Assembly: GCF_044704955.1 (NCBI RefSeq)
Contig: NC_091998.1
Coordinates: 4,960,001 to 5,024,000, forward strand
Source: Pristiophorus japonicus
Lineage: Eukaryota
Length of the DNA: 64,000 bases
Direction: 5' to 3'
Shown: piece after piece, positions 1,003-31,389 of the stretch
Layout of the letters: every line of letters begins with the position of its first letter
Position numbering within the stretch: position 1 is the first letter of the stretch
Translations under genes and position numbers: made by a program
Notes under the pieces: generated by a model
Database searches by the model: none
What the model saw: the letters and a program-made list of their open reading frames with translations, nothing else
What the model was told of the DNA's origin: nothing

Positions 1003-1096
1003 CTCACTGCTAAGAGCTGTAAACTTGCACAGGGAGATGATAAGGTTGTCAAACACATCACTCAGTCCATAATGAGCCGAGATCATTGCACATTTC
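1003..1096 (-). CDS. GBF1: GBF1 internal exon (downstream of the Sec7 domain)
   Basis: ttag|G AAA TGT...GAG|gttggt, 94 bp. Encodes (R)[31 protein letters not shown], matching vertebrate GBF1 as I recall it. Phase is compatible with the exon at 1848-2084. Confidence 0.95.
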
Positions 1097-1847: not shown

Positions 1848-2084
1848 CTGAAACCGGATATTGCCTTCTGTATTATAGTTTCATCCAAGCTCTTGTCAAA
1901 AACATAGGAAAGCGCAGCTATGGTGGGACCCCAGGTCATGGTGAATAGGTCGTGGTCAAAGCTTCCAGGAGGTACGTGGAGGAAAATGCCTTCTGATGCA
2001 CTCCCACGGTTCAAAAGTACATTCCATATGTAGTTCTCTCTGACAAAACCGGTTTGTTCCTCTGGCATCACAATCTCATCATTC
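1848..2084 (-). CDS. GBF1: GBF1 internal exon
   Basis: ctcag|G AAT GAT...TTC AG|gtaaaa, 237 bp. Encodes NDEIVMPEEQTGFVRENYIWNVLL...DLFTMTWGPTIAALSYVFDKSLDETIIQKAISGFR. Confidence 0.96.
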
Positions 2085-5863: not shown

Positions 5864-7810
5864 AGGAGGGGCGAAAGGGAGGGAGGGGCGAAGGGGAGGG
5901 AGGGGCGAAAGGGGCGAAAGGGAGGGAGGGGCGAAAGGGAGGGAGGGGCGAAAGGGAGGGAGGGGCGAAAGGGAGGGAGGGGCGAAAGGGAGGGAGGGGC
6001 GAAAGGGAGGGAGGGGCGAAAGGGAGGGAGGGGTGAAAGGGAGGGGAAGAAAGGGAGGGGAAGAAAGGGGGGGAGGAGAGAAAGGGGGGGAGGAGAGAAA
6101 GGGAGGGAGGAGAGAAAGGGAGGGAGGGGAGAAAGGGAGGGAGGGGAGAAAGGGAGGGAGGGGAGAAAGGGAGGGAGGGGAGAAAGGGAGGGAGGGGAGA
6201 AAGGGAGGAAAGGGGAGAAAGGGAGGGAGGGGAGAAAGGGAGGAAAGGGAGAAAGNNNNNNNNNNNNNNNNNNNNNNNNNNNNNNNNNNNNNNNNNNNNN
6301 NNNNNNNNNNNNNNNNNNNNNNNNNNNNNNNNNNNNNNNNNNNNNNNNNNNNNNNNNNNNNNNNNNNNNNNNNNNNNNNNNNNNNNNNNNNNNNNNNNNA
6401 GGGGGGGGAGGGGAGAAAGGGGGGGGGAGGGGAGAAAGGGGGGGGAGGGGAGAAAGGGGGGGAGGGGAGAAAGGGGGGGAGGGGAGAAAGGGGGGGAGGG
6501 GAGAAAGGGGGGGAGGGGAGAAAGGGAGGGGAGAAAGGGAGGGGAGGAGAGAAACGGAGGGGAGGGAGGGAGGGGAGGAGAGAAAGGGAGGGGAGGGAGG
6601 GAGGGGAGGAGAGAAAGGGAGGGGAGGGAGGGAGGGAGGAGAGAAAGGGAGGGTGGGAGGGAGGGAGGAGAGAAAGGGAGGGTGGGAGGGAGGGAGGAGA
6701 GAANNNNNNNNNNNNNNNNNNNNNNNNNNNNNNNNNNNNNNNNNNNNNNNNNNNNNNNNNNNNNNNNNNNNNNNNNNNNNNNNNNNNNNNNNNNNNNNNN
6801 NNNNNNNNNNNNNNNNNNNNNNNNNNNNNNNNNNNNNNNNNNNNNNNNNNNNNNNNNNNNNNNNNNNNNNNNNNNNNNNNNNNNNNNNNNNNNNNNNNNN
6901 NNNNNNNNNNNNNNNNNNNNNNNNNNNNNNNNNNNNNNNNNNNNNNNNNNNNNNNNNNNNNNNNNNNNNNNNNNNNNNNNNNNNNNNNNNNNNNNNNNNN
7001 NNNNNNNNNNNNNNNNNNNNNNNNNNNNNNNNNNNNNNNNNNNNNNNNNNNNNNNNNNNNNNNNNNNNNNNNNNNNNNNNNNNNNNNNNNNNNNNNNNNN
7101 NNNNNNNNNNNNNNNNNNNNNNNNNNNNNNNNNNNNNNNNNNNNNNNNNNNNNNNNNNNNNNNNNNNNNNNNNNNNNNNNNNNNNNNNNNNNNNNNNNNN
7201 NNNNNNNNNNNNNNNNNNNNNNNNNNNNNNNNNNNNNNNNNNNNGAGAGAGGAGAGAAAGGGAGGGAGGGAGGGGAGAAAGGGAGGGAGGGAGGGGAGAA
7301 AGGGAGGGAGGGAGGAGAGAAAGGGGGGAGGGAGGAGAGAAAGGGGGGAGGGAGGAGAGAAAGGGGGGAGGGAGGAGAGAAAGGGGGGAGGGAGGAGAGA
7401 AAGGGGGGAGGGAGGAGAGAAAGGGGGGAGGGAGGAGAGAAAGGGGGGAGGGAGGAGAGAAAGGGGGGAGGGAGGAGAGAAAGGGGGGAGGGAGGAGAGA
7501 AAGGGGGGAGGGAGGAGAGAAAGGGGGGAGGGAGGAGAGAAAGGGGGGAGGGAGGAGAGAAAGGGGGGAGGGAGGAGAGAAAGGGGGGAGGGAGGAGAGA
7601 AATGGGGGAGGGAGGAGAGAAAGGGGGGAGGGAGGAGAGAAAGGGGGGAGGGAGGAGAGAAAGGGGGGAGGGAGGAGAGAAAGGGGGGAGGGAGGAGAGA
7701 AAGGGGGAGGGAGGAGAGAAAGGGAGGGAGGGAGGAGAGAAAGGGGGGAGGGAGGAGAGAAAGGGGGGAGGGAGGAGAGAAAGGGAGGGAGGGAGGAGAG
7801 AAAGGGAGGG
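5864..7810. repeat. Polypurine (G/A) minisatellite tract interrupted by N gaps
   Basis: GGGAGGGAGGGGCGAAA-type units, then a near-perfect 20-bp unit GGAGGAGAGAAAGGGGGGAG (~24 copies, 7311-7800). Gaps at 5637-5863, 6256-6399 and 6704-7243. Confidence 0.95.
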
Positions 7811-7814
7811 AATT

Positions 7815-7932
7815 GACGGCCGCGTTTCCTACATTACAACAGTGACTACACTTCAAAAAAGTACTTCACTTGCTGTGAAGCACTTTGGGAAGGGCGTGAA
7901 AGGCGCTATATAAATGCAAGTCTTTCTTTCTT
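7815..7932 (+). mobile_element. Deu-SINE 3' remnant
   Basis: gccgcgtttcctacattacaacagtgactacacttc...ggcgctatataaatgcaagtctttctttc matches the other SINE copies in the window. Confidence 0.85.
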
Positions 7933-8103: not shown

Positions 8104-8186
8104 TTGATTGCATTATAGATGTCCTCCAACATATCTTGGTCAAAATCTTTAGAACCATTGACTCCTTTTAAATTCTTCTTGAATTG
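8104..8186 (-). CDS. GBF1: GBF1 internal exon (end of the Sec7 domain)
   Basis: acag|CAA TTC AAG...ATC AA|gtaagt, 83 bp. Encodes QFKKNLKGVNGSKDFDQDMLEDIYNAI(K) and splices in frame (AA+G) to 1848-2084. Confidence 0.94.
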
Positions 8187-8754
8187 CTGTAGCAGGAAAA
8201 AAGGTAACAAAACTAAATAAGACCAAAAATCCTTGTTACAATTGCAAGGTAGTTGATATTGTTCCCACTTACCCAAATAACCATTAAAAAAAAGGAATTG
8301 AAGTCACCTTAATGTATTAACATTAAAAATCTATCATTCACTTTCCTTACAATAAACAACATGAAGGACAGGTGTGGTGCTGGTACATGTTTAGCTTTCA
8401 GTTTATTAAACTGAATTCAAGGAATAGGTCAAGCAGGCTATCTGATGAAACACAGCACCATTTTAAGTATGTAAAGGGATTTAAAAGCTTATTTTACAGT
8501 GAACAAGTAATTACTGTTGACTTTGCCTGTCAAAGAAAACATATCTTTCACTTGGAGTTTTATAAGATAGATTTCAATGTTGATTTTAACAACGTTAGTA
8601 AAATTAAAACCTTCTTCGTCTATCCATTAGGATGGAATAGTCATATTATTATTTAATGAAGCAATGATCTTACAGAATTACCACAAATAATTCGAGTCAG
8701 TATGGAGCTCAGAAATTGCATTAAAAGACGTATTTCTTCAAAAGTCCACTCCAT

Positions 8755-8903
8755 TCTTCTTCTGAGGCAGTCTCTCGGAGTCAAGGATGACTTGCATGCA
8801 CACTAAAATGAGTTCTCAGATGACTGATGAGTCCAACGAGGGACCTACAGTCTCGGTCACAGGTGGAGCAGACAGTGGTTAAAGGGACGGATGGGTGGAG
8901 TGC
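8755..8903 (-). mobile_element. Element with an RTE-type 3' tail, truncated by a gap
   Basis: aggcagtctctcggagtcaaggatgacttgc is similar to the reverse complement of the RTE tail at ~395-426, and is preceded by a (TTC)n tail. Confidence 0.55.
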
Positions 8904-9491
8904 NNNNNNNNNNNNNNNNNNNNNNNNNNNNNNNNNNNNNNNNNNNNNNNNNNNNNNNNNNNNNNNNNNNNNNNNNNNNNNNNNNNNNNNNNNNNNNNNN
9001 NNNNNNNNNNNNNNNNNNNNNNNNNNNNNNNNNNNNNNNNNNNNNNNNNNNNNNNNNNNNNNNNNNNNNNNNNNNNNNNNNNNNNNNNNNNNNNNNNNNN
9101 NNNCTCCCTCTCTCTCTCTCCCCCTCCCCGGTCGCTCTCTCTCTCTCTCTCTCCCCCTCCCCGGTCTCTCTCTCTCTCCCNNNNNNNNNNNNNNNNNNNN
9201 NNNNNNNNNNNNNNNNNNNNNNNNNNNNNNNNNNNNNNNNNNNNNNNNNNNNNNNNNNNNNNNNNNNNNNNNNNNNNNNNNNNNNNNNNNNNNNNNNNNN
9301 NNNNNNNNNNNNNNNNNNNNNNNNNNNNNNNNNNNNNNNNNNNNNNNNNNNNNNNNNNNNNNNNNNNNNNNNNNNNNNNNNNNNNNNNNNNNNNNNNNNN
9401 NNNNNNNNNNNNNNNNNNNNNNNNNNNNNNNNNNNNNNNNNNNNNNNNNNNNNNNNNNNNNNNNNNNNNNNNNNNNNNNNNNNNNNNNNNN
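8904..9491. other. Assembly gap region (N runs around a CT-rich islet) separating the GBF1 and SGPL1 segments
   Basis: N runs at 8904-9103 and 9181-9491, with a (CT)n/ccccggt islet between them. Confidence 0.95.
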
Positions 9492-11100
9492 ATTTCCGCC
9501 TCTTTCTCAGAAGGGTGTGAAAATGTCCGTGCAGATAATTACAGCGTATTCTGGGCAAGAGTACTGGGGATGCCCGAGTCACAGTTGCAGGTCGAGGCTG
9601 GAGAGGCAATGAGCTCCATGTGGTTCGTGATTCGATCGCACTTCCAGCTTCCTGATGCACATGTGTGGCCGGGTGGCGTGCGCTTGCGCAAAAAGGGGTG
9701 GAGTCCATGGAGTGCATGCGCCGAAGGGGACATATGTTCGTGCAGATAATCACTCATTTGTTTATACACGTTAACAGGCACTGGAGGGACTCCTGTCAAT
9801 CAGCATCGATTGCCTCTTGAGTCTGGCTGTAAATGGGTCCCATTTAGTCGACACCTGTGGGATCTAAATAAATGATCACTTTCTGTAGGTTGTGTGACAG
9901 TACTAAGGGTTTCCGTGTAAAGAGTATGAACTGTATGGCCTGGAGGAGCTGGTTAAGCTATCTGCCGTGGAGTTGGTTTATTGAGCAGGGGTGGGGCAAT
10001 TTCAGTTGATCTGTAAATAATGCACCGCTGAAAGCAGCTGTCGGCACAGTAACCGAGCGTGCGGTGTCACGGTATGTTGTACGTGTAACATGTACAGCCC
10101 TGCCTTGTGCCGCATTTGGAATAACAACCACTCATTACACCTACTTCGTACAAAAATGAGCATTTCCATACATTTAAGGATGCGTGTAATTTGCATCGCA
10201 TTTGCAAACCATCAGTGTTACATGTGAAGGCGGGGGCAATGACCTTGGGAGGTGTGGGGGCGTGGACAATGGCAGTGGGGGTAGTGGGGTTATATGGGGG
10301 GCATGGACGATAACCTCCGGGGGGGGGGGGGGGGGTGGATGTGACTGATCTCCGAGGGGACGTGGCGGCAATGGCCTGCTGTTTGCCTTTATAATCAATG
10401 GCGCTGGGCTTGAGCATGTAACATTCATGAAACCTGCATCCTGAGTCCAAGGGACATTGGCAGACCCCGCTTTGTGTGGGTCGACTGTGCCAGCTGTTCT
10501 CGGGGGTACAGCGGGGTTGCAGCACAGTCTGCAGCTGACCAAGGGAGAACTCCCCTGCCTCCTGTCGGCTGCTGAGTTAGTCTGAGCAACGAGGATACGA
10601 CTATTCAAGCAGCTCTGTCCTAATGTGCAAGTGTTCGTCAAACTTTGCCACCAGGGCTGCTGGTCCCTCTGCAGATTCTTTCTTCATCCAGTCTCCCTGC
10701 AAGTCCGCAGATACGTTTGAAATGTGTTTACATTTTAAAAAGTCAGCAGTCTTTTTCTATTGAGATTTGGCTTTCGGTGAGGAGGTTTAACGTTCCTCCG
10801 CCCTCGTAAAGTCTGACTGAACATAACTGCAGCACTGGGACCCCTGCAGCATTTCTCAAGGCACAGATTGTACAGTGCGGGGAGCCAAGAGCACAGCCTG
10901 TGGGTTCCTGTCAAGCCCGTATTATATCGGAGCTTGAATAAAAGGGAACTTCTTTCCACCGAATTTGTGCGAACTTTGGGAAAGGGGGAGTTTTAAACAA
11001 ACTTGCATCGATAAGCCCCCGATCATGTCTCAGAAATGCACCGAAGTGCTTCTCCTGCAATTAATTACTTTGAAACCAAACAGTGCAGTGTTCCCTGTGG

Positions 11101-11335
11101 TGAGGGAGTGCCGCACTGTCGGAGGGGCAGTACTGAGGGAGTGCCGCACTGTCGGAGGGGCAGTACTGAGGGAGTGCCGCACTGTCGGAGGGGCAGTACT
11201 GAGGGAGTGCCGCACTGTCGGAGGGGCAGTACTGAGGGAGTGCCGCACTGTCGGAGGGGCAGTACTGAGGGAGTGCCGCACTGTCGGAGGGGCAGTACTG
11301 AGGGAGTGCCGCACTGTCGGAGGGGCAGTACTGAG
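11101..11335 (+). repeat. 33-bp minisatellite, 7 identical copies, inside a SINE fragment
   Basis: Unit TGAGGGAGTGCCGCACTGTCGGAGGGGCAGTAC starts at 11101, 11134 ... 11299. Confidence 0.97.
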
Positions 11336-11393
11336 TTGGATTGTCGTCTTTCAGATGAGGCTGCACTCTCATCTGCCTCATCAGGTGGATGCA

Positions 11394-11860
11394 GAAAGAA
11401 AGGCTTGCATTTATATAGCGCCTTTCACGACCACAGGATGTCCCAAAGCGCTTTGCAGCCAATGAAGTACTTTTGAAGTGTAGTCACTGTTGTAATGTGG
11501 GAAACGCAGCAGCCAATTTGCGCACAGCAAGCTCCCACAAACAGCAATATGATAATGATCAGATAATCTGTTTTTGTTATGTTGATTGAGGGATAAATAT
11601 TGGCCCCAGGACACCGGGGATAACTCCCCTGCTCTTCTTCGAAATAGTGCCATGGGATCTTTTATGTCCACCTGAGAGGGCAGACGGGGCCTCGGTTTAA
11701 CATCTCATCCGAAAGACGGCACCTCCGACAGTGCAGCACTCCCTCAGTACTGCACTGGGAGTGTCAGCCTAGATTTATGTGCTCAGGGCCCTGGAGTGGG
11801 ACTTGAACCCACAACCTCCTGACTCGGGGACGGGAGTCCTGTCCACTGAGCCAGAGCTGA
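11394..11860 (-). mobile_element. tRNA-derived Deu-domain SINE (SacSINE1/AmnSINE1-like), full length
   Basis: On the minus strand: A-box TGGCTCAGTGG, B-box GGTTCAAGTCCC, body gtgctgcactgtcggaggtgccgtctttcggatgag, and an L2-like tail ggcgctatataaatgcaag. The family name is from recollection. Confidence 0.85.
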
Positions 11861-12187
11861 CACACACCGAAGATCCCATGGTAGAACTCGGAGAACAGCA
11901 GTGTCCTGGCCAGTATTTATTGCCTGGTCTTATATCGCATTTGCTGTTTGTGGGATCTTGCTATGCACAAATTAGCTACTACATTCACCGACATAAGTTA
12001 CTGCACGAAGAAACGAACTCACCAGCTGTGAAACGCTTTGCAATTCCTGAGATCATGGTCGTGTAGCTGGAGCTAATGCGTGGTTGAGGGTTTGGAAGAC
12101 TCTGCTTGACTGACACTTTTTGCAATGAATCACCTGCATCAGGCAGGTTGGCGCCTGCCCTCGGTGCAGGCCCTGTGTGGTTTGCTT

Positions 12188-12780
12188 TCATAGAATCATA
12201 GAAATTTACAGCACGGTAGGAGGCCATTTCGGCCCATCGTGTCGAACAGCCGACAAAGAGCTACCCAGCCTAATCCCACTTTCCAGCTCTTGGTCCGTAG
12301 CCCTGCAGGTTACTGCACTTCAGGTGCACATCCAAAAACTTTTTAATATGGTGAGGGTTTCTGCCTCTGCCGCCCTTTCAGGCAGTGAGTTCCAGACCCC
12401 CACCATCCTCTGGGTGAAGAAATTTCCCCTCAAATCCCTTTTAAACCTCCGACCAATTACTTTAAATCTATGCCCCCTGGTTGTTGACCCCTCTGCTAAG
12501 GGAAATAGTTCCTCCCTATCCACTCTATCCAAGCCCTTCATAATTTTACACACCTCAATAAGGTCTCCCCTCAGCCTCCTCTGTTCCAAAGAAAACGACC
12601 CCAGTCTATCCAATCTTTCCTCATCGCTAAAATTCTCCAGTCCAGGCAACATCCTCCTAAATCTCCTCTAGTGCAATCACATCTTTTCTGTTATGTGACC
12701 AGAACTGCATGCAGTACTCCGGCTGTGGCCTAACCAGTGATTTATACAATTTCAAGCATAACCTCCTTGCTCTTTGTATG
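12188..12780 (-). mobile_element. CR1 LINE 3' fragment
   Basis: ORF 12320-12652 (ERLDRLG.FSLEQRRLRGDLIEV.KI...FFTQR.VGVWNSLP) and tail (CTATGATT)n. Confidence 0.92.
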
Positions 12781-12904
12781 TCCTAGCCCGTGGGCATTGC
12801 ACTCTGTCTTGGTCGCGTTGCTCGCACTGCAACGCTCAGCTCCTTGCACATAACCGAAAACAATCCGGGCCAGCGTTGACTCCACTGTTTTTGTTTCTGT
12901 TCAG

Positions 12905-13013
12905 TGTCGCTCCCATCAGTGCTCATGCTGCTTTCGACAAGGCCGCTCACTACTTTGGGATGAGTATCGTGCACGTACCATTGGACAAGAGAACAATGCA
13001 GGTGGATGTGAAG
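12905..13013 (+). CDS. SGPL1: SGPL1 internal exon (first one visible)
   Basis: tcag|T GTC GCT...GTG AAG|gtaggt, 109 bp. Encodes [36 protein letters not shown]. Confidence 0.95.
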
Positions 13014-16681: not shown

Positions 16682-16780
16682 GCCATGAGAAGAGCCATCT
16701 CAAGGAACACGGTCATGCTGGTCTGCTCGGTTCCACAGTTCCCCCACGGTATCATGGACCCGGTCTACGAGCTTGCCAAG
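16682..16780 (+). CDS. SGPL1: SGPL1 internal exon
   Basis: tgcag|GCC ATG AGA...GCC AAG|gtgctt, 99 bp. Encodes [33 protein letters not shown]. Confidence 0.95.
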
Positions 16781-17127
16781 GTGCTTTCTGGACCCTGTAT
16801 TAACAATGCTGCGACGGAAAGACTCCAGCGGGAATTACCCGGCTTTATTTGAAGAAGTTCAAAGCCCTTTTGGTGGAGACGGAAGATGGGAAACTCTCAT
16901 GTGTTGCTTTTGTTTTTTCCTGTCCGTCCTTTATATAGTTTCACTAAGAATACAGTTGTTGAAAGAGAAATTCTTGGGGATTTGATAAGCACGTCACTCC
17001 TGTTTTCTGGAATTGTTTTGAAGCTGTCTCTGTCAGGAAGCCTTTCAATACGATTTCTTACAGATTAATAATGGTTAACTTTGCCGTTTTGTTTTTGCTC
17101 CTAATTTTCTTTTTCACTTCAAAGTGA

Positions 17128-17455
17128 AATGTTTCCCCACGTGGGGGGGATCTAGAACCAGGGAGCATAGTTTCAGAATATGGGGTCGCCCATTTAGAAT
17201 GGAAATGAGGAGGAATTTCTTTTCTCAGGGTCGTGAATCTTTGGAATTGTGGCCTGGGTCATTGAATATATTTAAGGCGGAGATGGACAGATTTTTGAGC
17301 GATAAGGAAGTCACGGGCTATGGGCAGCGGGCGGGGAAGTGGAGCTGAGGCCAGGACCGGATCAGCCATGACCTTATTGAATGGCGGAGCAGGCTCGAGG
17401 GGCAAAATGGCCGACTCCTGCTCCTATTTCTTATGTTCTTATGTTTTATATGTTC
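17128..17455 (+). mobile_element. CR1 LINE 3' fragment
   Basis: Ends actcctgctcctatttcttatgttcttatg. Confidence 0.9.
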
Positions 17456-17499
17456 TTTTGTAAAGACTGATCACCACTGAGGAGGAATCAGGTTTGAGG

Positions 17500-17885
17500 G
17501 AACGGTATTATAGTGGTTATGTTACAGGATTAGTAATCCAGAGGTTCGGACTAATGATCCAGACATGAGTTAAAATCCCACCAAGGCAGCTGGGGAATTT
17601 AAATTCAGTTTGGAATAAAAAGCTCGTATCAGTCAAGGTGAAACTATCAGATTGTCGTAAAAACCCACCTGGTTCACTAATGCCCTTTTAGGGGAGGAAA
17701 TCTGCTGCCCTTACCCGGTCTGGCCAATATGTGATTCCACACCCACAGCTTTGTGGTTGACTCATAACTGCCCTCTGACATGGCCCAGTGAGGCACTCAG
17801 TTGTTCAAAGGCAATGAGGGATGGGCAATAAATGCTGGCTTCGCCACTGATGCCCATATCTCGAGAACGAATGGGGGAAAAAAAA
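17500..17885 (+). mobile_element. Second SINE family (MER131-like), sharing its 3' tail with the LINE at 21980/51035
   Basis: gtggttatgttacaggattagtaatccagagg...ctggttcactaatgccc...ggcaataaatgctggcttcgccactgatgcccatatc. Related copies at 61185-61515 and, more diverged, ~41600-41870. The family name is from recollection. Confidence 0.65.
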
Positions 17886-18234
17886 CTAGTTCCCACAGCG
17901 TGTGGGCAATCGGCATTGTATCGCTGAGGCTGGGAGGAAATTATGATCTCTTTTTCCCCCCCCCCCCCCCCCCCCCCCCACCCAGTCACCTTCTTGGCAC
18001 AATTACCTTGTTGCTGCATAAGATCGGGGGCTGGTAACCGGGCCAAATGACCATTCGTGGTGTGGGAGCCTAGATATGTGAATTCCAGGGTGGGGGGAGG
18101 GGCACGCAGGGGGAGAAATGGGCGTTGGGAGGTATGGATTTGGGGGGGGGGGTGAGGAAGGGATCAGTACAGTTAGACTCACCCAGTGCCCATTCTTGCT
18201 CCATTCAAACGGGCATCATTTAGCTTGCTGTCAC

Positions 18235-18665
18235 GCACTGGAACCTGAGGGGGCAGAGATTTACTAGAATTGTTACCAGGGATGAGGGCTTCAGTTCATG
18301 TGTAGAGACTGGAGAAGCTGGGGTTGTTCTCCTTGGAGCAGAGAAGGTTAAGAGGAGATTTGATAGAGGGGATTTGATGGAATATATCGGGAGAAGCTGT
18401 TTCCACTGCCGGGAGGGTCGATAACCAGAGGACAGAGATTTAAGGCAACAGGCAAAAGAACCTGAAGTGACATTATACACAGCGAGTTATGATTTGGAAC
18501 GCGCTGCCTGAAAGGGCTATGGACCCAGATTCAATAGTAACTTTTAGAAGGCAATTGGAGAATTGGTGGGTTATGGGGAGTAGGGCTGATTGGATCGCTC
18601 TGTCACAGAGCCGGCACAGGCACGATGGGCCGAATGGCGGCCTCCTGTGCATGTATGATTCTGTC
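18235..18665 (+). mobile_element. CR1 LINE 3' fragment (degenerate)
   Basis: gagactggagaagctggggttgttctccttggagcagagaaggttaagaggagattt...gatgggccgaatgg. Confidence 0.8.
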
Positions 18666-18806
18666 TGCATTCAGATAACGTGGTGGTTTTATTTTTCAAA
18701 ATATGTTTTGAAATTCACTCAACTGCTTACAGTTAATTAATGATTTCTCCCCCGTCCCCTGCACCCTTCCCCATCTCTCTCTCTCTCTCTCTCTCTCTCT
18801 GTTCAG

Positions 18807-18953
18807 CTGGCCTGGGATTATGAAATCCCCTTGCATGTCGACGCCTGTCTGGGGGGGTTTCTGATTGTCTTCATGGAGAAAGCTGGTTACTCGCTGTCGC
18901 CCTTCGACTTCCGTCTTAAGGGAGTGACGAGCATCTCTGCCGACACGCATAAG
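18807..18953 (+). CDS. SGPL1: SGPL1 exon ending at the PLP-binding lysine
   Basis: (ct)n gttcag|CTG GCC...CAT AAG|gtaggg, 147 bp. Encodes [49 protein letters not shown], including the HVDA and SADTHK motifs. Confidence 0.96.
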
Positions 18954-18957
18954 GTAG

Positions 18958-19412
18958 GGAAAAGAAAGGAAGACTTTATATAGTGCCTTTCACGACCACC
19001 AATCATCTCAAAGCGCTTTACAGCCAATTAGGTACATTTGGAGTGTAGTCACTGTTGTAATGTGGGAAACGCGGCAGCCAATTTGCTCACAGCAAGCTCC
19101 CACACACAGCAATGTGATGATGACCAGATGTGATGTTGATTGAGGGATAAATATTGGCCCAGGACACCGGGGATAACTCCCCCTGCTCTTCTTCGAAATA
19201 AGAGTCGTGGGATCTTTTACGTTCACCTGAGAGGGCAGACGGGGCCTCGGTTTAACATCTCATCTGAAAGACAGGCACCTCCGACAGTGCAGCACTCCCT
19301 CAGCACTGCACTGGGAGGGTCAGCCTAGATTCATGTGCTCGAGTCCCTGGAATGGGACTTGAACCCACGACCTCCTGACTCCGAGGCGAGGGTGCTGCCC
19401 ACTGAGCCACGG
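18958..19412 (-). mobile_element. Deu-SINE, full length, inserted immediately after the splice donor
   Basis: Same consensus as 11394-11860. Its tail begins within ~5-10 nt of the gtaggg donor. Confidence 0.88.
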
Positions 19413-19747
19413 CTTGGTTACAACTGGCCCACGATGCGTGAATGAGGTTTGGTGCAGGGTGGGATACGGGCAACGGAGTTTCTGGGTGAGCTGAGGTTTA
19501 TGGAGGAGGTCAGAGGAGAAAAGGAGGCCGGCCAGGGCTGACGAAGAGGTGCTCTTTGCGATGGAAAGGCTTGGCAGTGTCGGCTCGGCATTGAATAGGC
19601 TGCGAACATGGTCTGGTTCAGCCTGCGACAGTGGCCAGGGAGGGGAGTGGAATTGGTGGCAAGGGTCGGGAGATTGTGGGTGGGGCGGGAGGTGGTGTGA
19701 AGACTAATGCTTCGATTTCCCCAACGTTGAACTGGAGGACATTGGGA

Positions 19748-19881
19748 ATACGTTCCCTCGGCCGCACAGCCTAGTACCGACATTTGCAGTGTGAAATTTT
19801 GTGCGTGCGCAAAGCTTGGAATGGGCCACGCAGCCTGTTAATGGGATCGTGCTCCCAAATTTAAAATGAGGGGGAACATTG
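19748..19881. mobile_element. hAT-type MITE with 8-bp TSD, inserted in an old L2-like fragment
   Basis: TSD CATTGGGA at 19740-19747 and 19882-19889. Ends (atac)GTTCCCTC ... GGGGGAACATTG. Confidence 0.7.
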
Positions 19882-19934
19882 CATTGGGACTTGTATTGTG
19901 TGCCTGCAGAGCATACAACACCACAGCACTTCAA

Positions 19935-20960
19935 ATGCAAGTAATGCATTTGGGGAGGGCTACAAGGCAAGGGAATACACAATAAATGGGAGGACACTGA
20001 GAAGTGTAGAGGAACAAAGGAACCTTGGAGTGCATGTCCACAGATCCCTGAAGGTAGCAGGACAGGTAGATAAGGTGGTTAAGAAGGCATACGGAATACT
20101 TGCCTTTATTAGCCGAGGCATAGAATACAAGAGCAGGGGGGTTATGCTACAACTGTATAAAACACTCGTGTGGCCTCAGCTGGCATACTGCCTGCAGTTT
20201 TGGTCACCATAGTACAGGAAAGAGGTGATTGCACTAGAGAGGGTACAGAGGAGATTTACGAACATACGAAAAATGACGGACAGGTAAAGATCACCTGGTC
20301 CAGCGAGCCTGTCCCCCACAATTGCAATACCTTGTGCATCACAACATATACACTCCACCCCACCTGGAACCATGTGATCTCCTGGGAGAGGCAAAAAAAC
20401 AGATGAAATACCCAGGCCAATTTGGGATTAAAAGAAAATATGGGAAATTTCTCTCCGACCTATCAAGGCGATTGAAACTAGTCCTGTTTACATTTATGGG
20501 GATGTTGCCTGGACTGAAGAATTTTAGCCAAGAGGAAAGATTGGATAGGCTGGGTTTGTTTTCTTTGGGACAGAGGAGGCTGAGGGGAGACCTGATTGAG
20601 GTGTATAAAATTATGAGGGGCCTGGATAGAGTGGATCGGAAGGACCTATTTTCCTTAGCAGAGGGGTAAATACCCCGGGGGGCATGAATTTAAAGTAGTT
20701 GGTAGAAGATTTAGAGGGGAGACGAGGAAACGTTTCTTCCCCCAGAGGGCGGTGGGGGTCTGGAACTCACGGCCTGAAAGGGTGGTAGAGGCAGAAACCC
20801 TCACCACAGTTTTAAAAAGTACATGGATGTGCACTTGAAGAGCCGTAACCTACAGGGCTACGGACCGAGAGCTGGAAAGTGGGATTCGGCTGAATGGCTT
20901 TGTCGGCCGGCACGGACACGATGGGCCGAATGGCCTCCTTCCGTGCTGTAAATTTCTCTG
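19935..20960 (+). mobile_element. CR1 LINE 3' portion, interrupted at ~20261-20495 by an antisense retroelement 3' fragment
   Basis: ORFs 19898-20212 (LGVHVHRSLKVAGQV...LEYC-like) and 20322-20669. The insert begins aacatacgaa and is flanked by ATTTACG/ATTTATG. Confidence 0.85.
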
Positions 20961-21180
20961 ATATTATCTTTCAAAGCAATTCAACACACGGAAATATCGT
21001 TGCCTATATGAGAGATGCAGTAGATTACGAGCTAATGGCTGCACCCATACACAAAAGATTTAAATGAGAGTTCCCCCTGCTGAACTGTTAGTGGGATTGA
21101 GTGGGCAGAAAGTTTCATTCTTCCAGTTGCTAGCTTGCTCAATGATTTTTTTTTTTAATGATAATTTCTTCCCCTCCCAG

Positions 21181-21419
21181 TACGGATACGCCCCCAAGGG
21201 TTCGTCCGTCATCCTGTACAGCGACAAGAAGTACCGTCACTACCAGTTCTTCGTCGCTCCCGACTGGCAGGGAGGGATCTACGCGTCGCCCACGATCGCC
21301 GGATCGAGACCCGGAGGGATCATCGCTGCCTGCTGGGCGACCATGATGTACATGGGCGAGGACGGCTATGTTAAAGCCACCAAGGAGATCATTGAAACAG
21401 CGCGACATATTGAAACACA
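21181..21419 (+). CDS. SGPL1: SGPL1 internal exon
   Basis: cccag|TAC GGA TAC GCC...ACA CA|gtacgt, 239 bp. Encodes [79 protein letters not shown]. Confidence 0.97.
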
Positions 21420-21979
21420 GTACGTATACTCTGTATAGCCTCACGGTTCAGGTTATGAGCAGCGATTACAGTTTCGGCTTGTTTGAATATCATATAAAGA
21501 AAGACTTGCATTTATATAGCGCCTTTCACGACCACCAGACATCTCAAAGTGCTTTATAGCCAATGGAGTGTAGTCACTGTTGTAATGTGGGAAACGCCAA
21601 TTTGCGCACAGCAAGCTCCCACAAACAGCAATGTGATAACGACCCGATAATCCGTTTTTGTTATGTTGATTGAGGGATTAATATTGGCCCCAGGACACCG
21701 GGGATAACTCCCCTGCTCTTTAGTTAATAGAAAGAGTTGCATTTCTATAGCGCCTTTCACAACCTCGAGACATCCCAAAGCGCTTTACAGCCAAGGAAGC
21801 ACTTTTGAAGTGTTGCAGGAAATTAGGCTTCTGTTCCCTGGAATTTCGATGGTTAAAGGGTGATTGGATCGATGTTTTTAGGAATTTGAAAGGAATTGAC
21901 AGGGTAGGCAGAGAAACTTTTTTCCCACTGGTAGAGTAGACTAGGACACGGGGGCATAACCTTAAAATCAGAGACAGCC

Positions 21980-22470
21980 TGGATGAGTTGCAGATTCAAC
22001 ACTCGAAGCTCGACACCATCCAGGACAAAGCAGCCGCTTGATCGGCCCCCCATCCACCACCTTCAACATTCACTCCCTCCACCACCGGCGCACCGTGGCT
22101 GCAGTGTGTACCATCTACAAGATGCACTGCAGCAACTCGCCAAGGCTTCTTCAGCAAACCTCCCAAACCCGCGACCTCTACCACCTAGAAGGACAAGGGC
22201 AGCAGGCACATGGGAACACCACCACCTCCACGTTCCCCTCCCAGTCACACACCATCCCGACTTGGAAATATATCGGCCGTTCCTTCATCGTCGCTGGGTC
22301 ACAATCCTGGAACTCCCTCCCTAACAGCACTGTGGGAGCACCTTCACCACACGGACTGCAGCGGTTCAAGGCGGTGGCTCACCACCACCTTCTCAAGGGG
22401 CAATTAGGGACGGGCAATAAATGCCAGCCATTCCAGCGCCGCCCACATCCCGGGAATGAATTTAAAAAAG
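21980..22470 (+). mobile_element. LINE 3' end (CR1/L2-superfamily-like), nested in a CR1 fragment
   Basis: IHSLHHRRTVAAVCTIYKMH...WNSLP followed by the ggcaataaatgc...gcccacatccc tail. Further copies at 51035-51575, 56168-56613 (minus) and 63913-64000. Confidence 0.8.
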
Positions 22471-22569
22471 AGAAGTTAGGAAACACTTCTTCACCCCTCC
22501 GGTAGAAGTGTGGTACACTCTCTCCCACAAAAGCAATAGGTGTTGCCTCAATTAATTTTAAATCTGAGA

Positions 22570-22870
22570 TTTGCGCACAGCAAGCTCCCACAAACAGCAA
22601 TGTGATAATGACCAGATAATCTGTTTTTAGTAATGTTGGTTGAGGGATAAATATTGGGCCCAGGACACCGGGATAACTCCCCTGCTGCTCGTCGAAATAT
22701 TGCCATTGGATCTTTTACGCCCACCTGAGAGAGCAGACGGGGCCTCGGTTTAACGTCTCATCCGAGAGACGGCACCTCCGACAGTGCAGCACTCCCTCAG
22801 CACTGCACTGGGAGTGTCAGCCTGGATTTTAATGCTCAAGTCTCTGTTGAACCCACAACCCACTGAGCCA
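22570..22870 (-). mobile_element. Deu-SINE fragment
   Basis: Matches the SINE consensus seen elsewhere in the window. Confidence 0.85.
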
Positions 22871-22949
22871 TGGCACTTTGGGGGCAAAGTAAAAGTGTGT
22901 GAACACCAACAAAGATAATTATTATCCCTGCACCAACATTTCCCTTGTC

Positions 22950-24052
22950 TGTTAAGCAACGCCTCGATTTCAAAATTCTCATCCTTGTTTTCAAATCCTT
23001 CCATGGCCTCCTCACCCCTCCCTATCGCTATAATCTCCTCCAGCCCCACAACCCCTCTGAGATGTCTGTGCTCCTCTAACCCTGCCCTCTTGAGCATCCC
23101 TGATTTATAATCGCTTAACCATTGGTGGCTGTACCTTCTGTTGCCTGGGTCCCAAGCTCTGGAACTCCCTCCCTAAACATCTCCGCCTCTCTACCTCTCT
23201 CTCTTCCTTCAAGATGCTCCTGAAAACCTACCTCTTTGACCAAGGTTTTGATCACCTGCACTTCATTCTACTTAATTCAAGTCAAACATGCAGGTGCAGC
23301 AAGCAGTTAGGAGGGCAAATGGTATGTTGGCCTTCATTGCAAGAGGATTGAGTACAGGAGCAAGGATGTCTACTACAATTATATAGGGCCCTGGTGAGAC
23401 CGCACCTGGAGTAGTGTGTGCAGTTTTGGTCTCCTTACCTAAGAAGGGATATTCTTGCCACAGAGGGAGTGCAGCGAAGGTTCACCAGACTGATTCCTGG
23501 GATGGTAGCACTGTCGTATGAGGAGAGATTGGGTCGACTAGGCCTCTATTTAGAAGAATGAGAGGGGATGTCATTGAAACGTATAAAATTCTGACGGGGT
23601 TGGACAGACTGGATGTGGGGAGGATGTTTCCCCGGGCTGGGAAGTCTAGAACAAGGACTCAGTCTCAGGATATGGGGTTGGAAATTTGGGACCGAGATGA
23701 GGAGAAATGTTTTCACTGAGGGTGGTGAACCTGTGGAATTCTCTACCACAGAAGGCTGTGGAGGCCAAGTCACTGAATGTATTTAAGAGGGAGATATCGA
23801 TTTCTAGAATCAAAAGACATCAACGGGTATGGGGAGAAAGCGGGAATATGGTGTTGAGATAGATGATCAGCCATGATCATATTGAATGATGGTGCAGGCT
23901 CGAAGGGCCGAATGGCCTACTCCTGCCCCTATTTTCTATGTTTCTATGTTAATTGGCTCGGTGTCAAATTTTTTATCTCCTAATACTCCTGTGAAGCACC
24001 TTGGGACATTTCAGTACGTTAAAGGAGCTATATAAATACAGGTTGTTGTTGT
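22950..24052 (+). mobile_element. L2 3' end interrupted by a CR1 fragment (~23285-23950)
   Basis: L2 3' sequence runs to ~23270 and resumes at ggctcggtgtcaaat...ctatataaatacaggttgttgttgt after the CR1 tail ttctatgtttctatg. Confidence 0.85.
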
Positions 24053-24679
24053 GCAGTGTGCATGAAGAAAGACTGCCGAAGAGATTTTAAAACTGTTTTC
24101 AGTCCCCACCGCTCTCCAGCACAGATTGCTGAACAAATTGGGTAATTCTAGGCTACCCAGCTCTTCTGGTTTAAAATGGATTTTTTACAGCGTGCTGGTG
24201 GTGAGATGCACTGATTGGAAGGATGTTTGTCCCGACCTGCCTGCAGTCTGGTTGGGACTGTGGTTTCAGTGAGAGGTTCTGCAATCCTTGCACGTACAGA
24301 TGAAGTCAGTAAGCTCCAACCACATCAGTCGCTCAGCCCGGTGACTAAATGGCAAACTCCTGGGTAAAGTGCTCCTCGAGCAAATTTGATTATCAGACAT
24401 CTCCTATTCAGCAGGCCACCGTATAAGTACATGCACTTACCTCATTTGGGTTGTGACAAAGATGTTTCTCTGGCTCAGTCATGTGCATTCTTTCTATTTT
24501 GTTTTGTCTGCCCTGTTCTTTTTGGCCAAACCCTCTCTGGAGTAATAGTGTTCAGTTCTTGGCCCCGCCCGTCAGGGAGGATATGTCGGTCTCGGAGAGG
24601 GAGCAGCGCAGATTCACCAGATTGATACCTGGGGCTAAAAAGGGTTAAATTATTGAGGTCAGCTTGCATAGAGTTACAC

Positions 24680-26860
24680 AAGAACATAAGAAATAGGAGC
24701 AGGAGTCGGCCATACGGCCCCTCGAGCCTGCTCCGCCATTCAATAAGATCATGGCTGATCTGATCTTGGCCTCAGCTCCTTGAGTATCGAAGGTTGAAGG
24801 GTGATCAGGTTGCGCTGTTTAAAACATGAAAAAGATTTGATGGGGTAAATACGGAGAAACAATGTCCTCTGGTGGGCGAAATCCAGAACCAGGGGATATA
24901 ATGTTAAAATAGGAGCAAGGCCATTCAGGAATGAAATCAGGAAACACCCTTTCACACATAGTAATAGAAATCTGTGATTCTCTCCCCAAACGACTGTGGA
25001 TGCTGGGCGACAATTGGAGTTTTCAAGACTCAATCGATTTTCATTGTGTAAAGCTATCGAAGGATTATGGAGCTTTAATGTTGAGATCAGCCATGATCTA
25101 ATTGAAGGCTGGAGCAGGCCCGAGGGGCTGAATGGCCTCCTCCCGTTCCTATGTAACGCTGTCTGATCCTGTGCCCATCAAACGCCACACTGCCAAAACC
25201 CTGAGAAATGATTGGGAGTGGGAAGGCTGGCTGGCTCATTCATTGACCCAGCCTCCACAGCTCTCTGGGGCAAAGAATTCCAAAGATTCACGACCCTCAG
25301 AGAAGAAATTCCTTCTCATTTCTGTTTTAAAGGGGCGACCCCTTATTCTGAGACTATGCTCCCTAGTTCTAGATTCCCCCACGAGGAAAAACATGCTCTC
25401 TGCAGCTACCCTGTCCAGCCCCCTCAGAATCTTACCCGCTTCAATAAGATCGCCTCTCATTCTTCTGAACTCCAATGACTATAGGCCCAACCTGCTCAAC
25501 CTTTCTTCATAAGACAACCCCTTCATCTTCGGAATCACCCTCCTGACCTTTCTCTGAACTGCCCTGTACAGTTGTAGCGGGACTTCCTTACTTTTATACT
25601 CTGGCCCCAATATTCCATTTGCCTTCCTAATTGTTTGCTATACCTACATGCAAATGTTTTGAGTTTCATGTACAACGATCCTTCTGTAACAAAGCATTTT
25701 GTAATCTCTCCCTATTTAAGTAAAAATTTGCTTTTTTCTTTTTTCTTCCAAAGTGGATAACCTCACACTTTCCCACATTATGTTCCATCTGCCAAATTTT
25801 CGCCCACTCATTGAACCTATCTGTGTCCCTTAGCACATACACTATTGGTGGCCGTGCCTTCTGTTACCTGGGCCCCAAGCTCTGGAACTCCCTTCCTAAA
25901 CCTCTCGGCCTCTCTTTCCTCCTTTAAGATGATCCTTAAAACCTACCTCTTTCACCTTTTCTAATATCTCTATGTGGCTAGGTGCCAAATTTTGTTTGAT
26001 AACGCTGCATTGTTTTACAATGTTTGAGGTGCTATATGCATGTAAGTTGTTGCTTGCTGTAGTCTGCGACTGCTGAGATCAGCAGTCAGACAGAGGGGTG
26101 AGTCGAGTGCTTGTGACTGGATTCCACACCGTGTGGTTCTTTTGAGTCACTGGGAAGCTGCAGATGGTTTAACGTCTCATCCGAAAGACGACGCCTCCGA
26201 CAGTGCGGCACTCCCTCAGCACTGCACTGGGAGTGTCTGTTTCGAGTTTGTGCTCCAGTCGCTGGAGTGGGACTTGAACCCACGACCTTAAGGAGACCAT
26301 ACCTGGAGTATTGTGTACAGTTTTGGTCTCCTTACCCAAGGAAGGATATACTTGCCATAGAGAAAGTGCAACGAAGGTTCACCAGATGGGGGGGGGGGGG
26401 TGAGGAGGTGGGGATTGTCCTTTGAGGAGAGATTGAGTAGACTATGCCTATATTCTCTGGAGTTTAGAAGAATGTGAGGTGATCTCATTGAAACATACAA
26501 AATTCTTACAGGGCCTGACAGGGTAGATGCAGGGAGGGTGTTTTCCCCCTGGCTGGGGAGTCTAGAACCAGGGGTCACAGTCTCAGGATAAGGGGTAGGC
26601 CATTTAGGACTGAGATGAGAAATGTCTTCACTGAGGGTGGTGAATCTGTGGAATTCTCTACCCCAGAGAGCTATGGAGGCTCAGTCTTTGAGTATATTCA
26701 AGACGGTGATCGATAGATTTTTGGATATTAAGGGAATGAAGGGATATGGGGATCGGGCGGGAAAGTGGAGTTGAGGTCAATGATCAGCCGTGATCTCATT
26801 GAATGGCGGAGCAGGCTCGAGGGGCCGAATGGCCGACTCCTGCTCCTAATTCTTATGTTC
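24680..26860. mobile_element. Cluster of CR1, L2 and SINE fragments in both orientations
   Basis: CR1 ORF2 C-terminal translations (EFRRMRGDLIE...) at 25236-25475 (minus) and ~26290-26860 (plus). L2 tail at ~25845-26050. Confidence 0.8.
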
Positions 26861-27789
26861 TGACTCCAGCTGTGGAATAATCACGGGGGCTCCCTGTGTG
26901 AGCCCCTCCCACCACAAAACCAGAAGCACAAAATACTTGAAACCGGCTGCCTGTTGCCTTCAGAGCCTCCCCTCGAGGCCTTGCGTTGTCACCGAGAGTT
27001 TTGGTTCGCAGGCCGCATTGTGCTGACTCTGCAAAGAGTGACTGCCCCAGAACGGCACAAAACATCAACATTCCCAAGTAGACAGCATCTTATTGTTCGA
27101 AAAAAAACGGCGTACCGCACAGGAACTGAGGTCATAAATCCTTACATTGGTGCGTTTGGCCCGCGTTGTTCCCTCGTGTAATGGGCAGTGTGTCAGCCTG
27201 TGTGTCCTGACAAGGAAAGGGACAAATGATGGACAGCTAAGATCTTGTTGAGTAAGAGATACAATTAACATCCGGCTTCCATGGTTGCTGGATGATTGAA
27301 AGAAAGGCACTTAAACAAATATCTGCAAATGGAGCGAAGTGCAAACAGGGCTTAAGATAATGGGACCCGGGGAGTAAACGCGTCCATAATTTCACCCGTG
27401 ACTGTCTAAACAAAGAACGCGGCCAATAGTCCAAATGTGTTGACTCCCAAAGATTGGGAGGCGATTAAATCGGAGCTCCCACCTGTAAACGAGCGAGGGG
27501 GCGCATTTTGGGTTCGCTCGAGCAGAATGGGAGTTGTGCTGACTTGCACGGTTGCGGGTGTGAACACCATCAGTTGTGGTGTTGAGCCGATGAAGGGAAG
27601 ATGTTGCTCTGCCTTGACTAGTTTTTCACAGCTGCACTCTGTTTACCAACAACAGACCTCCATTGTTCTATTTCTAGTTGCACGAACCCTCGCGGAAGCA
27701 ACTTGCGTCCACTGTATTGACTCGCTTTAGTTTGAATCCCAGTTTAATCTGCTTAAAATGAAAGACCTTTCTGGGCCAAAGACAGAAAT

Positions 27790-28196
27790 AATTTGCATTT
27801 ATACGGCGCCTTTCACCACCTCTGGTCGTCCCAAAGAGCTTCACAGCCGATGAAGCACTTTTTGAAGTGTAGTCGCTGCTGTAATGTGGGAAACGCGGCA
27901 GCTGGTTTGTGCTTCCACAAACAATCATTGTTGATTGAGGGACAAATATTGGCCAGGACACCGGGGAGAACTCCCCTGCTCTTCTTCGAAACAGTGCAGT
28001 GGGACCTTTTACGTCCACCTCCGAGGGCAGACTTTGTTTAACGTCTCATCCGAAAGACGGCACCTCCGACAGCGCAGCACTCCCTCAGCACTGCACTGGG
28101 AGTGTCGGCCTGGATTTTGTGCTCTCTCTGGATCGGGGCTTGAACCCACAACCTTATGACTCCGAGGCGAGTGTGCTGCCCACTGAGCCACAGCTG
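27790..28196 (-). mobile_element. Deu-SINE, full length
   Basis: A and B boxes at the 28140-28196 end, tail at 27790. Confidence 0.88.
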
Positions 28197-28576
28197 ATAG
28201 ACATTTAAGATCACGGCAATGTACAGAGCCATTGCAGTCCGTCTGGCTGGTCTGAAACCTGAAAGATAAATACAGTACTGTAGTTAATCCTTTGTATCCC
28301 TCAATCCCTTCTAACACCAGGAACCAGCCAGAACCCCCTCGAGCTTGTTGACAGAGTATTCTCCATAGTCTCCCTGTTCCACACGTTCCCCAATCTCTGT
28401 AAATACAAGTCTTTGGGCTAAGTGGCTACAATGGCACAACACACATGGTTTAAATATAAACCTCAAGTGAGATGGATTGATGCCGACGACTGTCTGAGAT
28501 CAATAACTCCACAGTGGGAGTGTTGCCCTGGATTTTAACAGCTTTCGGTGACATCGAGCAGCAAAGCACGAACTAT

Positions 28577-30150
28577 AAGAACATAAGATATATCGGAGCA
28601 GAAGTCGGCCATTCGGCCCCTCGAGCCTGCTCCGCCATTCAGTAAGATCTTGGCTGATCCAATCCTGGCCTCAGCTTCACTTCCCTGCCCGCTCCCCATA
28701 ACCCTTGACTCCCCATCATTCAAGAATCTGTAGCTCCACCTTAAATATATTCAATGACCCAGCCTCCACAGCTCTCTGGGGCAGAGAATTCCACAGATTC
28801 ACCAGAGAAGAAATTCCTCCTCATCTCCGTTCTAAATGGGCGCCCCCTAGTTCTCGATTCCCCCACGAGGGGAAACATCCTCTCTGCATCTACCCTGTCA
28901 AGCCCCCTCAGAATCTTATACGTTTCAGTAAGTTCACCTCTCATTCTTCTAAACTCCAGTGACTATAGGCCCAACCTGCTCAACCTTTCCTCTTAAAACA
29001 ATCCCTTCATCCCAGGAATTTCCTGAATTCCGCATTGTCCAAAGTGGTGTTTGGGCAAAGTACCTCGGTTATTTATTCTGCTGGAGCTGGTCACTGGGGA
29101 CTGGACGCACGACTGTAGGAAACGCAGCAGCCAGTTTGTGCACAGCAAAGGCGCGCAGTCAACAATGTGTTGATAACCACGTGATCTATTTTTAGTGATG
29201 CTGATTGAGGGATAAATATTGGCCCAGAACACCGGGGAAAACTCCCCTGCTCTTCTTTAAAATAGTGTCCGTGGGATCTTTCACGTCCGCCTGAGGGGGA
29301 AAACGGGGACCTTGGTGTAAAGTCTAATCCAAAGGATGGCACCTCCGACAGTGCAGCACTCCCTCAGCACTGCACTGGGAGCATCAGCCTACATTTTGTG
29401 CTCGAGCCCATGACTTTCAGACTCTGGGGCGAGAGTGCTACCTGACGCCTAAATTAAATGAGTGCGCTCCGTAACATTCTGAGAGAGGATACAGAAGAAA
29501 CTGTAAGCTCTTGGAGGTGAAAAGGTTCCACATGAAACTCCTGGAGTGCCCTTGCAGCTAAAGTACTTGTGCAAGTTGTTTCCCCGTCCTCTGGCTCCAT
29601 CTTGTGGCTCAGTTCTGTCATTGACACGAGAGGTTTTGCAAAACAAACTGACTCATGACCTTAAAAAAAAACCTCAACAAGAACGACGTGTATTTATATA
29701 GCGCCGTTGACGTAGTGAAACGTCCCAAGGTGCTTCACAGGAGTATTATGCGATTTAAAAAAAAATTGATACTGAGCTTCATAAGGAGATATTAGGGCAG
29801 GTGACCAAAAGCTGGGTCAAAGAGGTAGGTTTTAAGGAGCGTCTTAAAGGAGAAAAGAGAGGCGGAGAGGTTTAGGGAGGGAGTTCCAGAGTTTGGGGCC
29901 CAGGCAGCTGAAGGCACGGCCACCAATGATGGAGTGATTATAATCAGGGATGCTCAGGAGGGCCGAATTAGAGGAGCGCAGAGATCTCGGGGGGAAGGGG
30001 GGCTGTGGGGCTGGAGGAGGTTACAGAGATAGGGAGGGCCGAGGGCCGAGGGCCATGGAGGGATTTGAAAAACAGGATGAGAATTTTGAAATCGAGGCGT
30101 TGCTTAACCGGGGGCACAGGGGGTGATGGGTGAGCGGGATTTGGTGTGAG
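28577..30150 (-). mobile_element. CR1 (28577-29017), Deu-SINE (29115-29445) and L2 (29680-30150) fragments
   Basis: Family-diagnostic tails and translations. Confidence 0.8.
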
Positions 30151-31310: not shown

Positions 31311-31321
31311 GTAGGTGTTAC

Positions 31322-31323
<2 letters not shown>

Positions 31324-31368
<45 letters not shown>
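31324..31368. repeat. (AC)n microsatellite
   Basis: About 22 AC units just downstream of the donor site. Confidence 0.98.
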
Positions 31369-31369
<1 letters not shown>

Positions 31370-31389
31370 CACTTCATGATCAGGCCTGT

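What the first reader, a model, noticed from the sequence alone, without database searches (positions are those of the whole stretch)
8104..13013. Two half-genes diverge from one gap: GBF1 3' half (minus) back-to-back with SGPL1 3' half (plus), neither 5' half visible
Seen: the most 5' GBF1 exon present (8104-8186, end of Sec7) needs its upstream exons at higher coordinates. The most 5' SGPL1 exon present (12905, mid-protein) needs its upstream exons at lower coordinates. I found no SGPL1 exons in 1-12.9 kb and no GBF1 exons in 9.5-64 kb by eye. Between them lies the N gap 8904-9491. The sequence also changes character across it, from an AT-rich, TE-poor intron to a dense young SINE/CR1/L2 landscape. 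Inference: most likely a scaffolding misjoin or mis-oriented contig. Alternatives are a real rearrangement breakpoint leaving truncated copies, or interleaved antisense genes with very long introns.
Basis: partly seen in the sequence, partly recalled or inferred. Interest (0 to 1): 0.7.

Follow-up and report, generated by a model that had tools for sequence, protein, structure and literature searches.

The report
Assembly gap hiding an unplaced contig
The two apparent half-genes are ordinary genes with unbroken reading frames, whose front halves lie on a 335-kb piece of this shark genome that the assembly left unplaced and that most likely belongs in the gap between them, so this is an assembly artefact and not new biology.

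Summary
The window is G000:C22:4960001-5024000. Only 8904-9103 is N in the genome copy, exactly 200 N. One unplaced 334,567-bp contig, C3878, carries both missing halves: 19 GBF1 5' exons on minus from its left end, PITX3 in the middle, and 7 SGPL1 5' exons on plus up to 3 kb from its right end. C3878 707-1769 is identical to window 7841-8903 and includes the 8104-8186 exon. Splice phases fit at both breaks, giving stop-free models of 1889 aa (GBF1) and 565 aa (SGPL1). In 3 of 3 spliced-looking contig sets from a second study, exon 12905-13013 is preceded by exactly the last 30 bases of the C3878 SGPL1 exon. The GC step is a gradient along the omitted DNA. Scaffold order and orientation fit; this is an omission, not a misjoin, inversion, rearrangement or interleaving. 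Both ends of C3878 lie in GA/CT microsatellites, the likely cause of the breaks. No long read across the gap could be tested. No earlier scan note bore on it.

The parts
1003..1096 (-). GBF1 coding exon 22 of 39 (model numbering)
   Evidence: tblastn; AG/GT ends; extra exon added
1848..2084 (-). GBF1 coding exon 21 of 39
   Evidence: single match in G000
8104..8186 (-). GBF1 coding exon 20 of 39 (end of Sec7 region); present both on C22 and on C3878 (970-1052); its upstream exon is C3878:10002-9877, phase 0 to phase 0
   Evidence: covered exon-only by 3-kb contigs in X5 and X7
5864..7840 (+). Purine-rich (GA/GGGA) microsatellite, visible letters; C3878 begins inside it (its base 1 is about window 7135)
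   Evidence: purine fraction 0.97-0.99; offset and TRF on C3878
7841..8903 (+). Overlap of the C22 left contig with C3878:707-1769, no mismatch; C22 stops at 8903 inside a dispersed repeat while C3878 runs on
   Evidence: contigs of X5 and X7 bridge C3878 1769/1770 with 0 differences
8904..9103 (.). Assembly gap of exactly 200 N, the only N run in the genome copy of C22:4890001-4980000; stands for at least 332,798 bases (C3878:1770-334567)
   Evidence: the size is arithmetic
9104..9180 (+). Start of the right contig in a CT-rich microsatellite of the same polarity as the CT microsatellite that ends C3878 (333109-334567); related units but no true overlap
   Evidence: pyrimidine 0.94 against 0.85-0.88; best match to this stretch 75-77% over 83-90 bases
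12905..13013 (+). SGPL1 coding exon 8 of 14; upstream exon is C3878:331398-331486, phase 2 to phase 2
   Evidence: spliced junction seen in X5, X6, X7
16682..35826 (+). SGPL1 coding exons 9-14 (16682-16780, 18807-18953, 21181-21419, 31164-31310, 32836-32956, 35683-35826 with stop); ADTHKYG lysine is residue 349 of the model
44054..44161 (-). Exon of a Pterin_4a (PCBD-type) gene, tail to tail with SGPL1
   Evidence: PF01329 E 4.2e-8; translation; the name PCBD1 is recalled from human gene order, not tested

Best explanation
The front halves of both GBF1 and SGPL1 lie on one unplaced 334,567-bp contig, C3878, which most likely belongs inside the 200-N gap at 8904-9103, so the two half-genes are an assembly omission. 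With C3878 inserted on its + strand the order is: macro-H2A gene (+), GBF1 (-, 39 coding exons, 1889 aa), PITX3 (+), SGPL1 (+, 14 coding exons, 565 aa), PCBD-type gene (-). Shown: where the exons lie, the identical left overlap, phase-compatible junctions, stop-free models, and the spliced SGPL1 junction in other samples. Inferred: contigs broke in long GA/CT microsatellites at both ends of C3878 (a known weak point of HiFi data; this assembly's technology is not known to me), the scaffolder joined the two flanks with a fixed 200-N spacer, and the middle contig stayed unplaced.
For: (1) SGPL1 aa 3-232 match only C3878:308724-331490 (+): 6 of 13 matches; the other 7 are the window's exons. The contig ends 3 kb later. 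(2) GBF1 aa 1-881 lie on the same contig, minus strand, 178735 to 9877. (3) C3878 707-1769 equals window 7841-8903 with no mismatch and ends exactly at the gap. (4) Junctions read ...CTG GAG|GT and AG|CAA (MTLE/QFKK) and GAA AT|GT and AG|T GTC (YPEI/VAP), as in the shark references. (5) Models: GBF1 1889 aa, 1797 of 1894 identical to P0008; SGPL1 565 aa, 511 of 565 identical to P0168; one terminal stop each. (6) In X5, X6 and X7 (samples S2-S4, study P2, not flagged as the source DNA) one contig of 2287-2365 bases covers only 12905-13014; its 30 loose letters before equal the last 30 of C3878:331398-331486 (found once in C3878, never in the window), and its loose letters behind equal the next exon. 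(7) A 267-base contig of X7 and a 92-base contig of X5 bridge C3878 1769/1770 with 0 differences. (8) One full-length match each for the C3878 probes of GBF1, PITX3 and SGPL1. (9) GC rises gradually along C3878, from 0.40-0.45 to 0.46-0.51.
Against: No read or contig was seen spanning the right break; C3878 and the right contig do not overlap, so the remaining gap size is unknown and adjacency on the right rests on the splice junction. X5-X7 are not on record as RNA and come from one study. For GBF1 the loose-end letters were crowded out of the table by repeats, so only the lengths of the contigs fit, not their letters. The source-sample DNA contigs gave no useful cover of either exon. The bridging contigs lie in a dispersed repeat whose uniqueness I checked only within the roughly 467 kb fetched (next best 78%). 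Genome searches score only the best candidates, and one search used a stricter first look. Scyliorhinus shows different contig lengths for the two genes (43,981,544 and 30,786,469; species name cut off). Equal lengths give no gene order.
Confidence: 0.97

Rival explanations
1. Scaffolding misjoin or mis-oriented contig: the two flanks do not belong together in this order or orientation.
For: The join is a 200-N spacer with no sequence support; the composition steps across it.
Against: One contig links both flanks in their present orientation: identical overlap on the left, a spliced junction on the right, all exons collinear. The composition step is a gradient along C3878.
Confidence: 0.01
2. 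A real deletion allele of about 333 kb in the sequenced animal removes PITX3 and both 5' halves; C22 shows that allele and C3878 is the intact other haplotype.
For: C3878 and C22 differ in the shared microsatellite (9 mismatches and 28 gap openings over 1654 columns), which could be haplotype difference; no spanning long read was available.
Against: A real junction would more likely be assembled as sequence than as a 200-N spacer (inference); C22 stops mid-repeat at a base where C3878 and contigs of two other samples carry on; the unique overlap is identical; both tips lie in microsatellites where assemblies are known to break (PMC9186530, passages).
Confidence: 0.015
3. Interleaved antisense genes with very long introns, or truncated duplicate copies at a rearrangement breakpoint.
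For: None beyond the look of the window.
Against: The 5' exons lie between the halves and point away from each other; single copies; intact frames.
Confidence: 0.005

Closest known systems
'Fragmented' false gene loss in genome assemblies (bioRxiv 10.1101/2021.04.09.438906; passages seen)
   Same: A gene's exons are split between different scaffolds, and a piece of a chromosome is left unplaced.
   Different: Here one omitted contig splits two genes at once and also carries a whole third gene (PITX3), which gives the back-to-back look.
Assembly breaks from HiFi coverage dropout at GA-rich sequence (PMC9186530; two passages seen)
   Same: Both ends of C3878 lie in GA/CT microsatellites.
   Different: The read technology and depth of this assembly were not tested; the C22 left contig runs through the GA run and stops 1 kb later in a dispersed repeat.
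Vertebrate GBF1 (Sec7 ARF exchange factor), PITX3 and SGPL1 (PLP-dependent sphingosine-1-phosphate lyase)
   Same: Models are 89-95% identical to four cartilaginous-fish GBF1 proteins and 86-90% to three SGPL1 proteins; the PITX exon's best hit is PITX3 at 90%; gbf1 and pitx3 are named as neighbours in bony fishes (PMC9386070, passages).
   Different: In those fishes the paper lists a pancreatic lipase gene, hspa12a and eno4 in the same neighbourhood; here SGPL1 follows PITX3. Whether other sharks share this order was not tested.

Membership tests
Assembly gap with omitted contig (fragmented-gene artefact) | An N spacer in the assembly at the break | tested here: met
   Exactly 200 N at 8904-9103, the only N run in 90 kb of C22
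Assembly gap with omitted contig (fragmented-gene artefact) | Missing exons found on another scaffold, once only | tested here: met
   C3878; single full-length matches; searches are lower bounds
Assembly gap with omitted contig (fragmented-gene artefact) | The omitted piece links to both flanks in the scaffold's orientation | tested here: met
   Left: identical overlap. Right: spliced junction in 3 of 3 contig sets
Assembly gap with omitted contig (fragmented-gene artefact) | Long reads or Hi-C place the contig in the gap | not testable with these tools
   All 7 runs listed are held as Logan contigs only
Scaffolding misjoin or inversion | Flanks are non-adjacent or wrongly oriented | tested here: not met
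   All 39 GBF1 and 14 SGPL1 coding exons are collinear once C3878 is inserted
Truncated pseudogene at a breakpoint | Stops or frameshifts, or a second intact copy elsewhere | tested here: not met
   No internal stop; one match for the window GBF1 exon; 13 SGPL1 matches form one gene
GBF1 | Full-length match to GBF1 with Sec7 domain | tested here: met
   PF01369 on C3878; 1797 of 1894 identical to P0008; activity not tested
SGPL1 | Full-length match with the DTHK lysine motif | tested here: met
   565 aa, 511 identical to P0168, motif intact; best PDB hits are SGPL1; the role of this lysine in binding PLP is recalled; activity not tested
HiFi GA dropout as the cause | HiFi read depth falls at the microsatellites | not testable with these tools
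   Only the sequence context was measured

The most novel reading that the evidence does not exclude
The sequenced shark is heterozygous for a deletion of about 333 kb that removes PITX3 and the 5' halves of GBF1 and SGPL1, with breakpoints in an intronic repeat and a CT microsatellite; C22 shows the deleted allele and C3878 the intact one.
Probability: 0.015. Interest if true: 0.3.

Novelty: not a real feature. Interest (0 to 1): 0.05.

Why it matters
No new biology. It is useful as a curation note: C3878 should go into C22 at the gap (C22:4968904-4969103), + strand, trimming a 1769-base overlap. Until then annotation would split GBF1 and SGPL1, leave PITX3 unplaced and distort synteny. For the scan: back-to-back 3' halves around a round-number N run should first be checked against unplaced contigs.

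Tried and rejected
Whole-protein search of G000 with GBF1 P0008 failed twice for machine reasons; the Sec7 family search and tblastn on fetched DNA replaced it. The first GBF1 model (38 exons, 1856 aa) missed a 99-base exon that tblastn had merged with its neighbour; found, added. The first SGPL1 model began with two intron-coded residues; exon 1 was picked by a pattern search upstream that gave one hit, at C3878:285669 in a CpG-rich stretch; its letters were not checked against transcripts. No RNA holder is listed as such. Source-sample DNA contigs X1 and X3 left both exons almost or wholly uncovered; a filter leaves records out, so this proves nothing. No overlap between the end of C3878 and the right contig. 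Looking for more genes on C3878 170-315 kb: 559 frames passed my filter, 150 were printed, 22 were sent to Pfam; 2 hit PITX domains, 1 an RT-RNase H domain, 19 nothing, so other small genes there are not excluded. Left of GBF1 I expected NFKB2 from recalled human order; 60 of 115 frames gave a histone H2A C-terminus and a Macro domain instead. Papers: none hold pitx3, gbf1 and sgpl1 together; one holds pitx3, gbf1 and synteny; two searches were seen as listings, and only PMC9186530, PMC9386070 and 10.1101/2021.04.09.438906 were read, as passages; no supplements were read. Earlier scan notes: none near; 8 of 44 shown for the genome, none on this locus or on gaps. No structure prediction was run; it would not bear on the question.
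Full report
Observation. The window is G000:C22:4960001-5024000 of a 5.92-Gb assembly in 4318 pieces. Full-length cartilaginous-fish GBF1 and SGPL1 proteins came. tblastn on the window finds three GBF1 exons on minus (8186-8104, 2084-1848, 1096-1003; aa 880-1019 of P0008) and nothing credible for earlier residues, and seven SGPL1 exons on plus from 12905 to 35826 (aa 232-565) with nothing credible for aa 1-231. One correction: in the genome copy of C22:4890001-4980000 the only N run is window 8904-9103, exactly 200 bases. A round 200-N spacer is a usual scaffolding convention (recalled).

Where the missing halves are. A search of the genome with SGPL1 P0168 gave 13 matches: 7 are the window's exons and 6 (aa 3-232) lie on contig C3878 at 308724-331490, + strand. 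C3878 is 334,567 bases long, so it ends 3 kb after the last of these exons. The Sec7 family search put 3 of 27 matches on the same contig near its start, minus strand. With the whole contig fetched, GBF1 aa 1-881 map in order from 178735 down to 9877, and the exon at window 8104-8186 appears again at C3878 970-1052. C3878 has no N. In its middle, at about 199-210 kb on +, lies a homeobox gene with an OAR motif whose last exon's best hit is PITX3 at 90%.

Left link. C3878 139-1769 aligns to window 7260-8903 (97.5%). The differences lie in the purine-rich microsatellite; from window 7841 to 8903 there is no mismatch. C22 stops at 8903 inside a dispersed repeat and C3878 runs on. A 267-base contig of X7 (C3878 1567-1833) and a 92-base contig of X5 (1721-1812) cross that point with 0 differences; the next best copy of the 267 bases in the fetched DNA is 78% alike, which is not a genome-wide check.

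Right link. C3878 ends in a CT microsatellite (333109-334567) and the right contig begins in one of the same polarity, but they do not overlap, so some sequence is still missing. The link is by splicing. The donor at C3878:331486 is phase 2 and the acceptor at window 12905 completes the codon. Seven runs hold the SGPL1 3' end: four from a sample that may be the source of the assembly and three (X5-X7) from three other samples of a second study, of unrecorded kind. In all three, one contig of 2287-2365 bases covers only 12905-13014, with no cover of the introns beside it. Its 30 loose letters before the exon are the last 30 bases of C3878:331398-331486, which occur once in C3878 and not in the window, and its loose letters behind are the next exon at 16682. 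These contigs hold 764, 757 and 681 bases upstream of the exon; the model has 692 coding bases there. For GBF1, 3-kb contigs of X5 and X7 cover only the shared exon, X5's with 1105 bases on the upstream side and 1845 on the downstream side, X7's with 2908 upstream against 2625 coding bases in the model; their letters were not shown.

Gene models. With C3878 inserted, GBF1 has 39 coding exons (19 only on C3878, 3 in the window, 17 left of it), 1889 aa, no internal stop, 1797 of 1894 residues identical to P0008. SGPL1 has 14 coding exons (7 and 7), 565 aa, 511 of 565 identical to P0168. The internal junctions found are all AG/GT. DNA probes from the C3878 parts of PITX3, GBF1 and SGPL1 each have one full-length match; the three other PITX hits are 72-73% alike, and the other 39 hits of the SGPL1 probe cover only a short repeat at its end. 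So C3878 does not look like a redundant haplotig, within the limits of these searches.

Composition. GC is 0.40-0.45 over the GBF1 part of C3878 and 0.46-0.51 from 240 kb on, and the share of bases repeated within the fetched DNA also rises towards the SGPL1 side.

Neighbours. Left of GBF1 lie macro-H2A exons on +; right of SGPL1 a Pterin_4a exon on minus at 44054-44161. This points to one chromosome but gives no order. gbf1 and pitx3 are named as neighbours in bony fishes (PMC9386070, passages). No paper holds all three gene names.

How it arose (inferred). Both ends of C3878 lie in GA/CT microsatellites. HiFi coverage dropout at GA-rich sequence is documented as a cause of fragmentation (PMC9186530, passages); I do not know which reads built this assembly. 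The flanks were likely joined by long-range data with a fixed spacer while the middle contig stayed unplaced. The result matches the 'fragmented' class of false gene loss (10.1101/2021.04.09.438906, passages).

Verdict. Not a real feature: an omitted contig, not a misjoin, inversion, breakpoint or interleaving (0.97). A real heterozygous deletion cannot be strictly excluded without long reads (0.015). Interest 0.05. No earlier scan note bore on this.

Noticed in passing
G000:C3878 about 199390-209560 (+); L024, L025: A whole PITX3 gene lies on the unplaced contig, so it has no chromosome place in this assembly.
   Followed up: yes
G000:C22:51031294-51031840 (+): A second PITX-family last exon (73% alike to PITX3) on the same chromosome, beside hits on C2 and C4: four PITX-type loci in all; one search lists separate 'pituitary homeobox 3-like' proteins in other sharks. 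Not assigned.
   Followed up: no
L043:2069-2329 and 8304-8498 (+), C22 about 4.902-4.908 Mb: Histone H2A C-terminus and Macro domain exons, a macro-H2A gene tail to tail with GBF1.
   Followed up: partly
window 44054-44161 (-): Pterin_4a (PCBD-type) exon downstream of SGPL1; other exons not mapped.
   Followed up: partly
G000:C3878 about 242-244 kb (-); L029: Broken retroelement with an RT-type RNase H domain and, by eye, integrase- and gag-like frames, between PITX3 and SGPL1.
   Followed up: no
G000:C3878 3245-7905: Head-to-tail duplication of about 2.3 kb, 84% alike, in the GBF1 intron just beyond the gap; related sequence at window 31.4-32.6 kb.
   Followed up: no
G000:C3878 186501-191281: A 4.8-kb GC-rich minisatellite (33-base unit, about 145 copies) between GBF1's first coding exon and PITX3.
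   Followed up: no
window about 11100-11340 and 16130-16520; C3878 275639-276097 and 285907-286336: Tandem 33-base repeats inside a dispersed element, recurring across the SGPL1 side.
   Followed up: no
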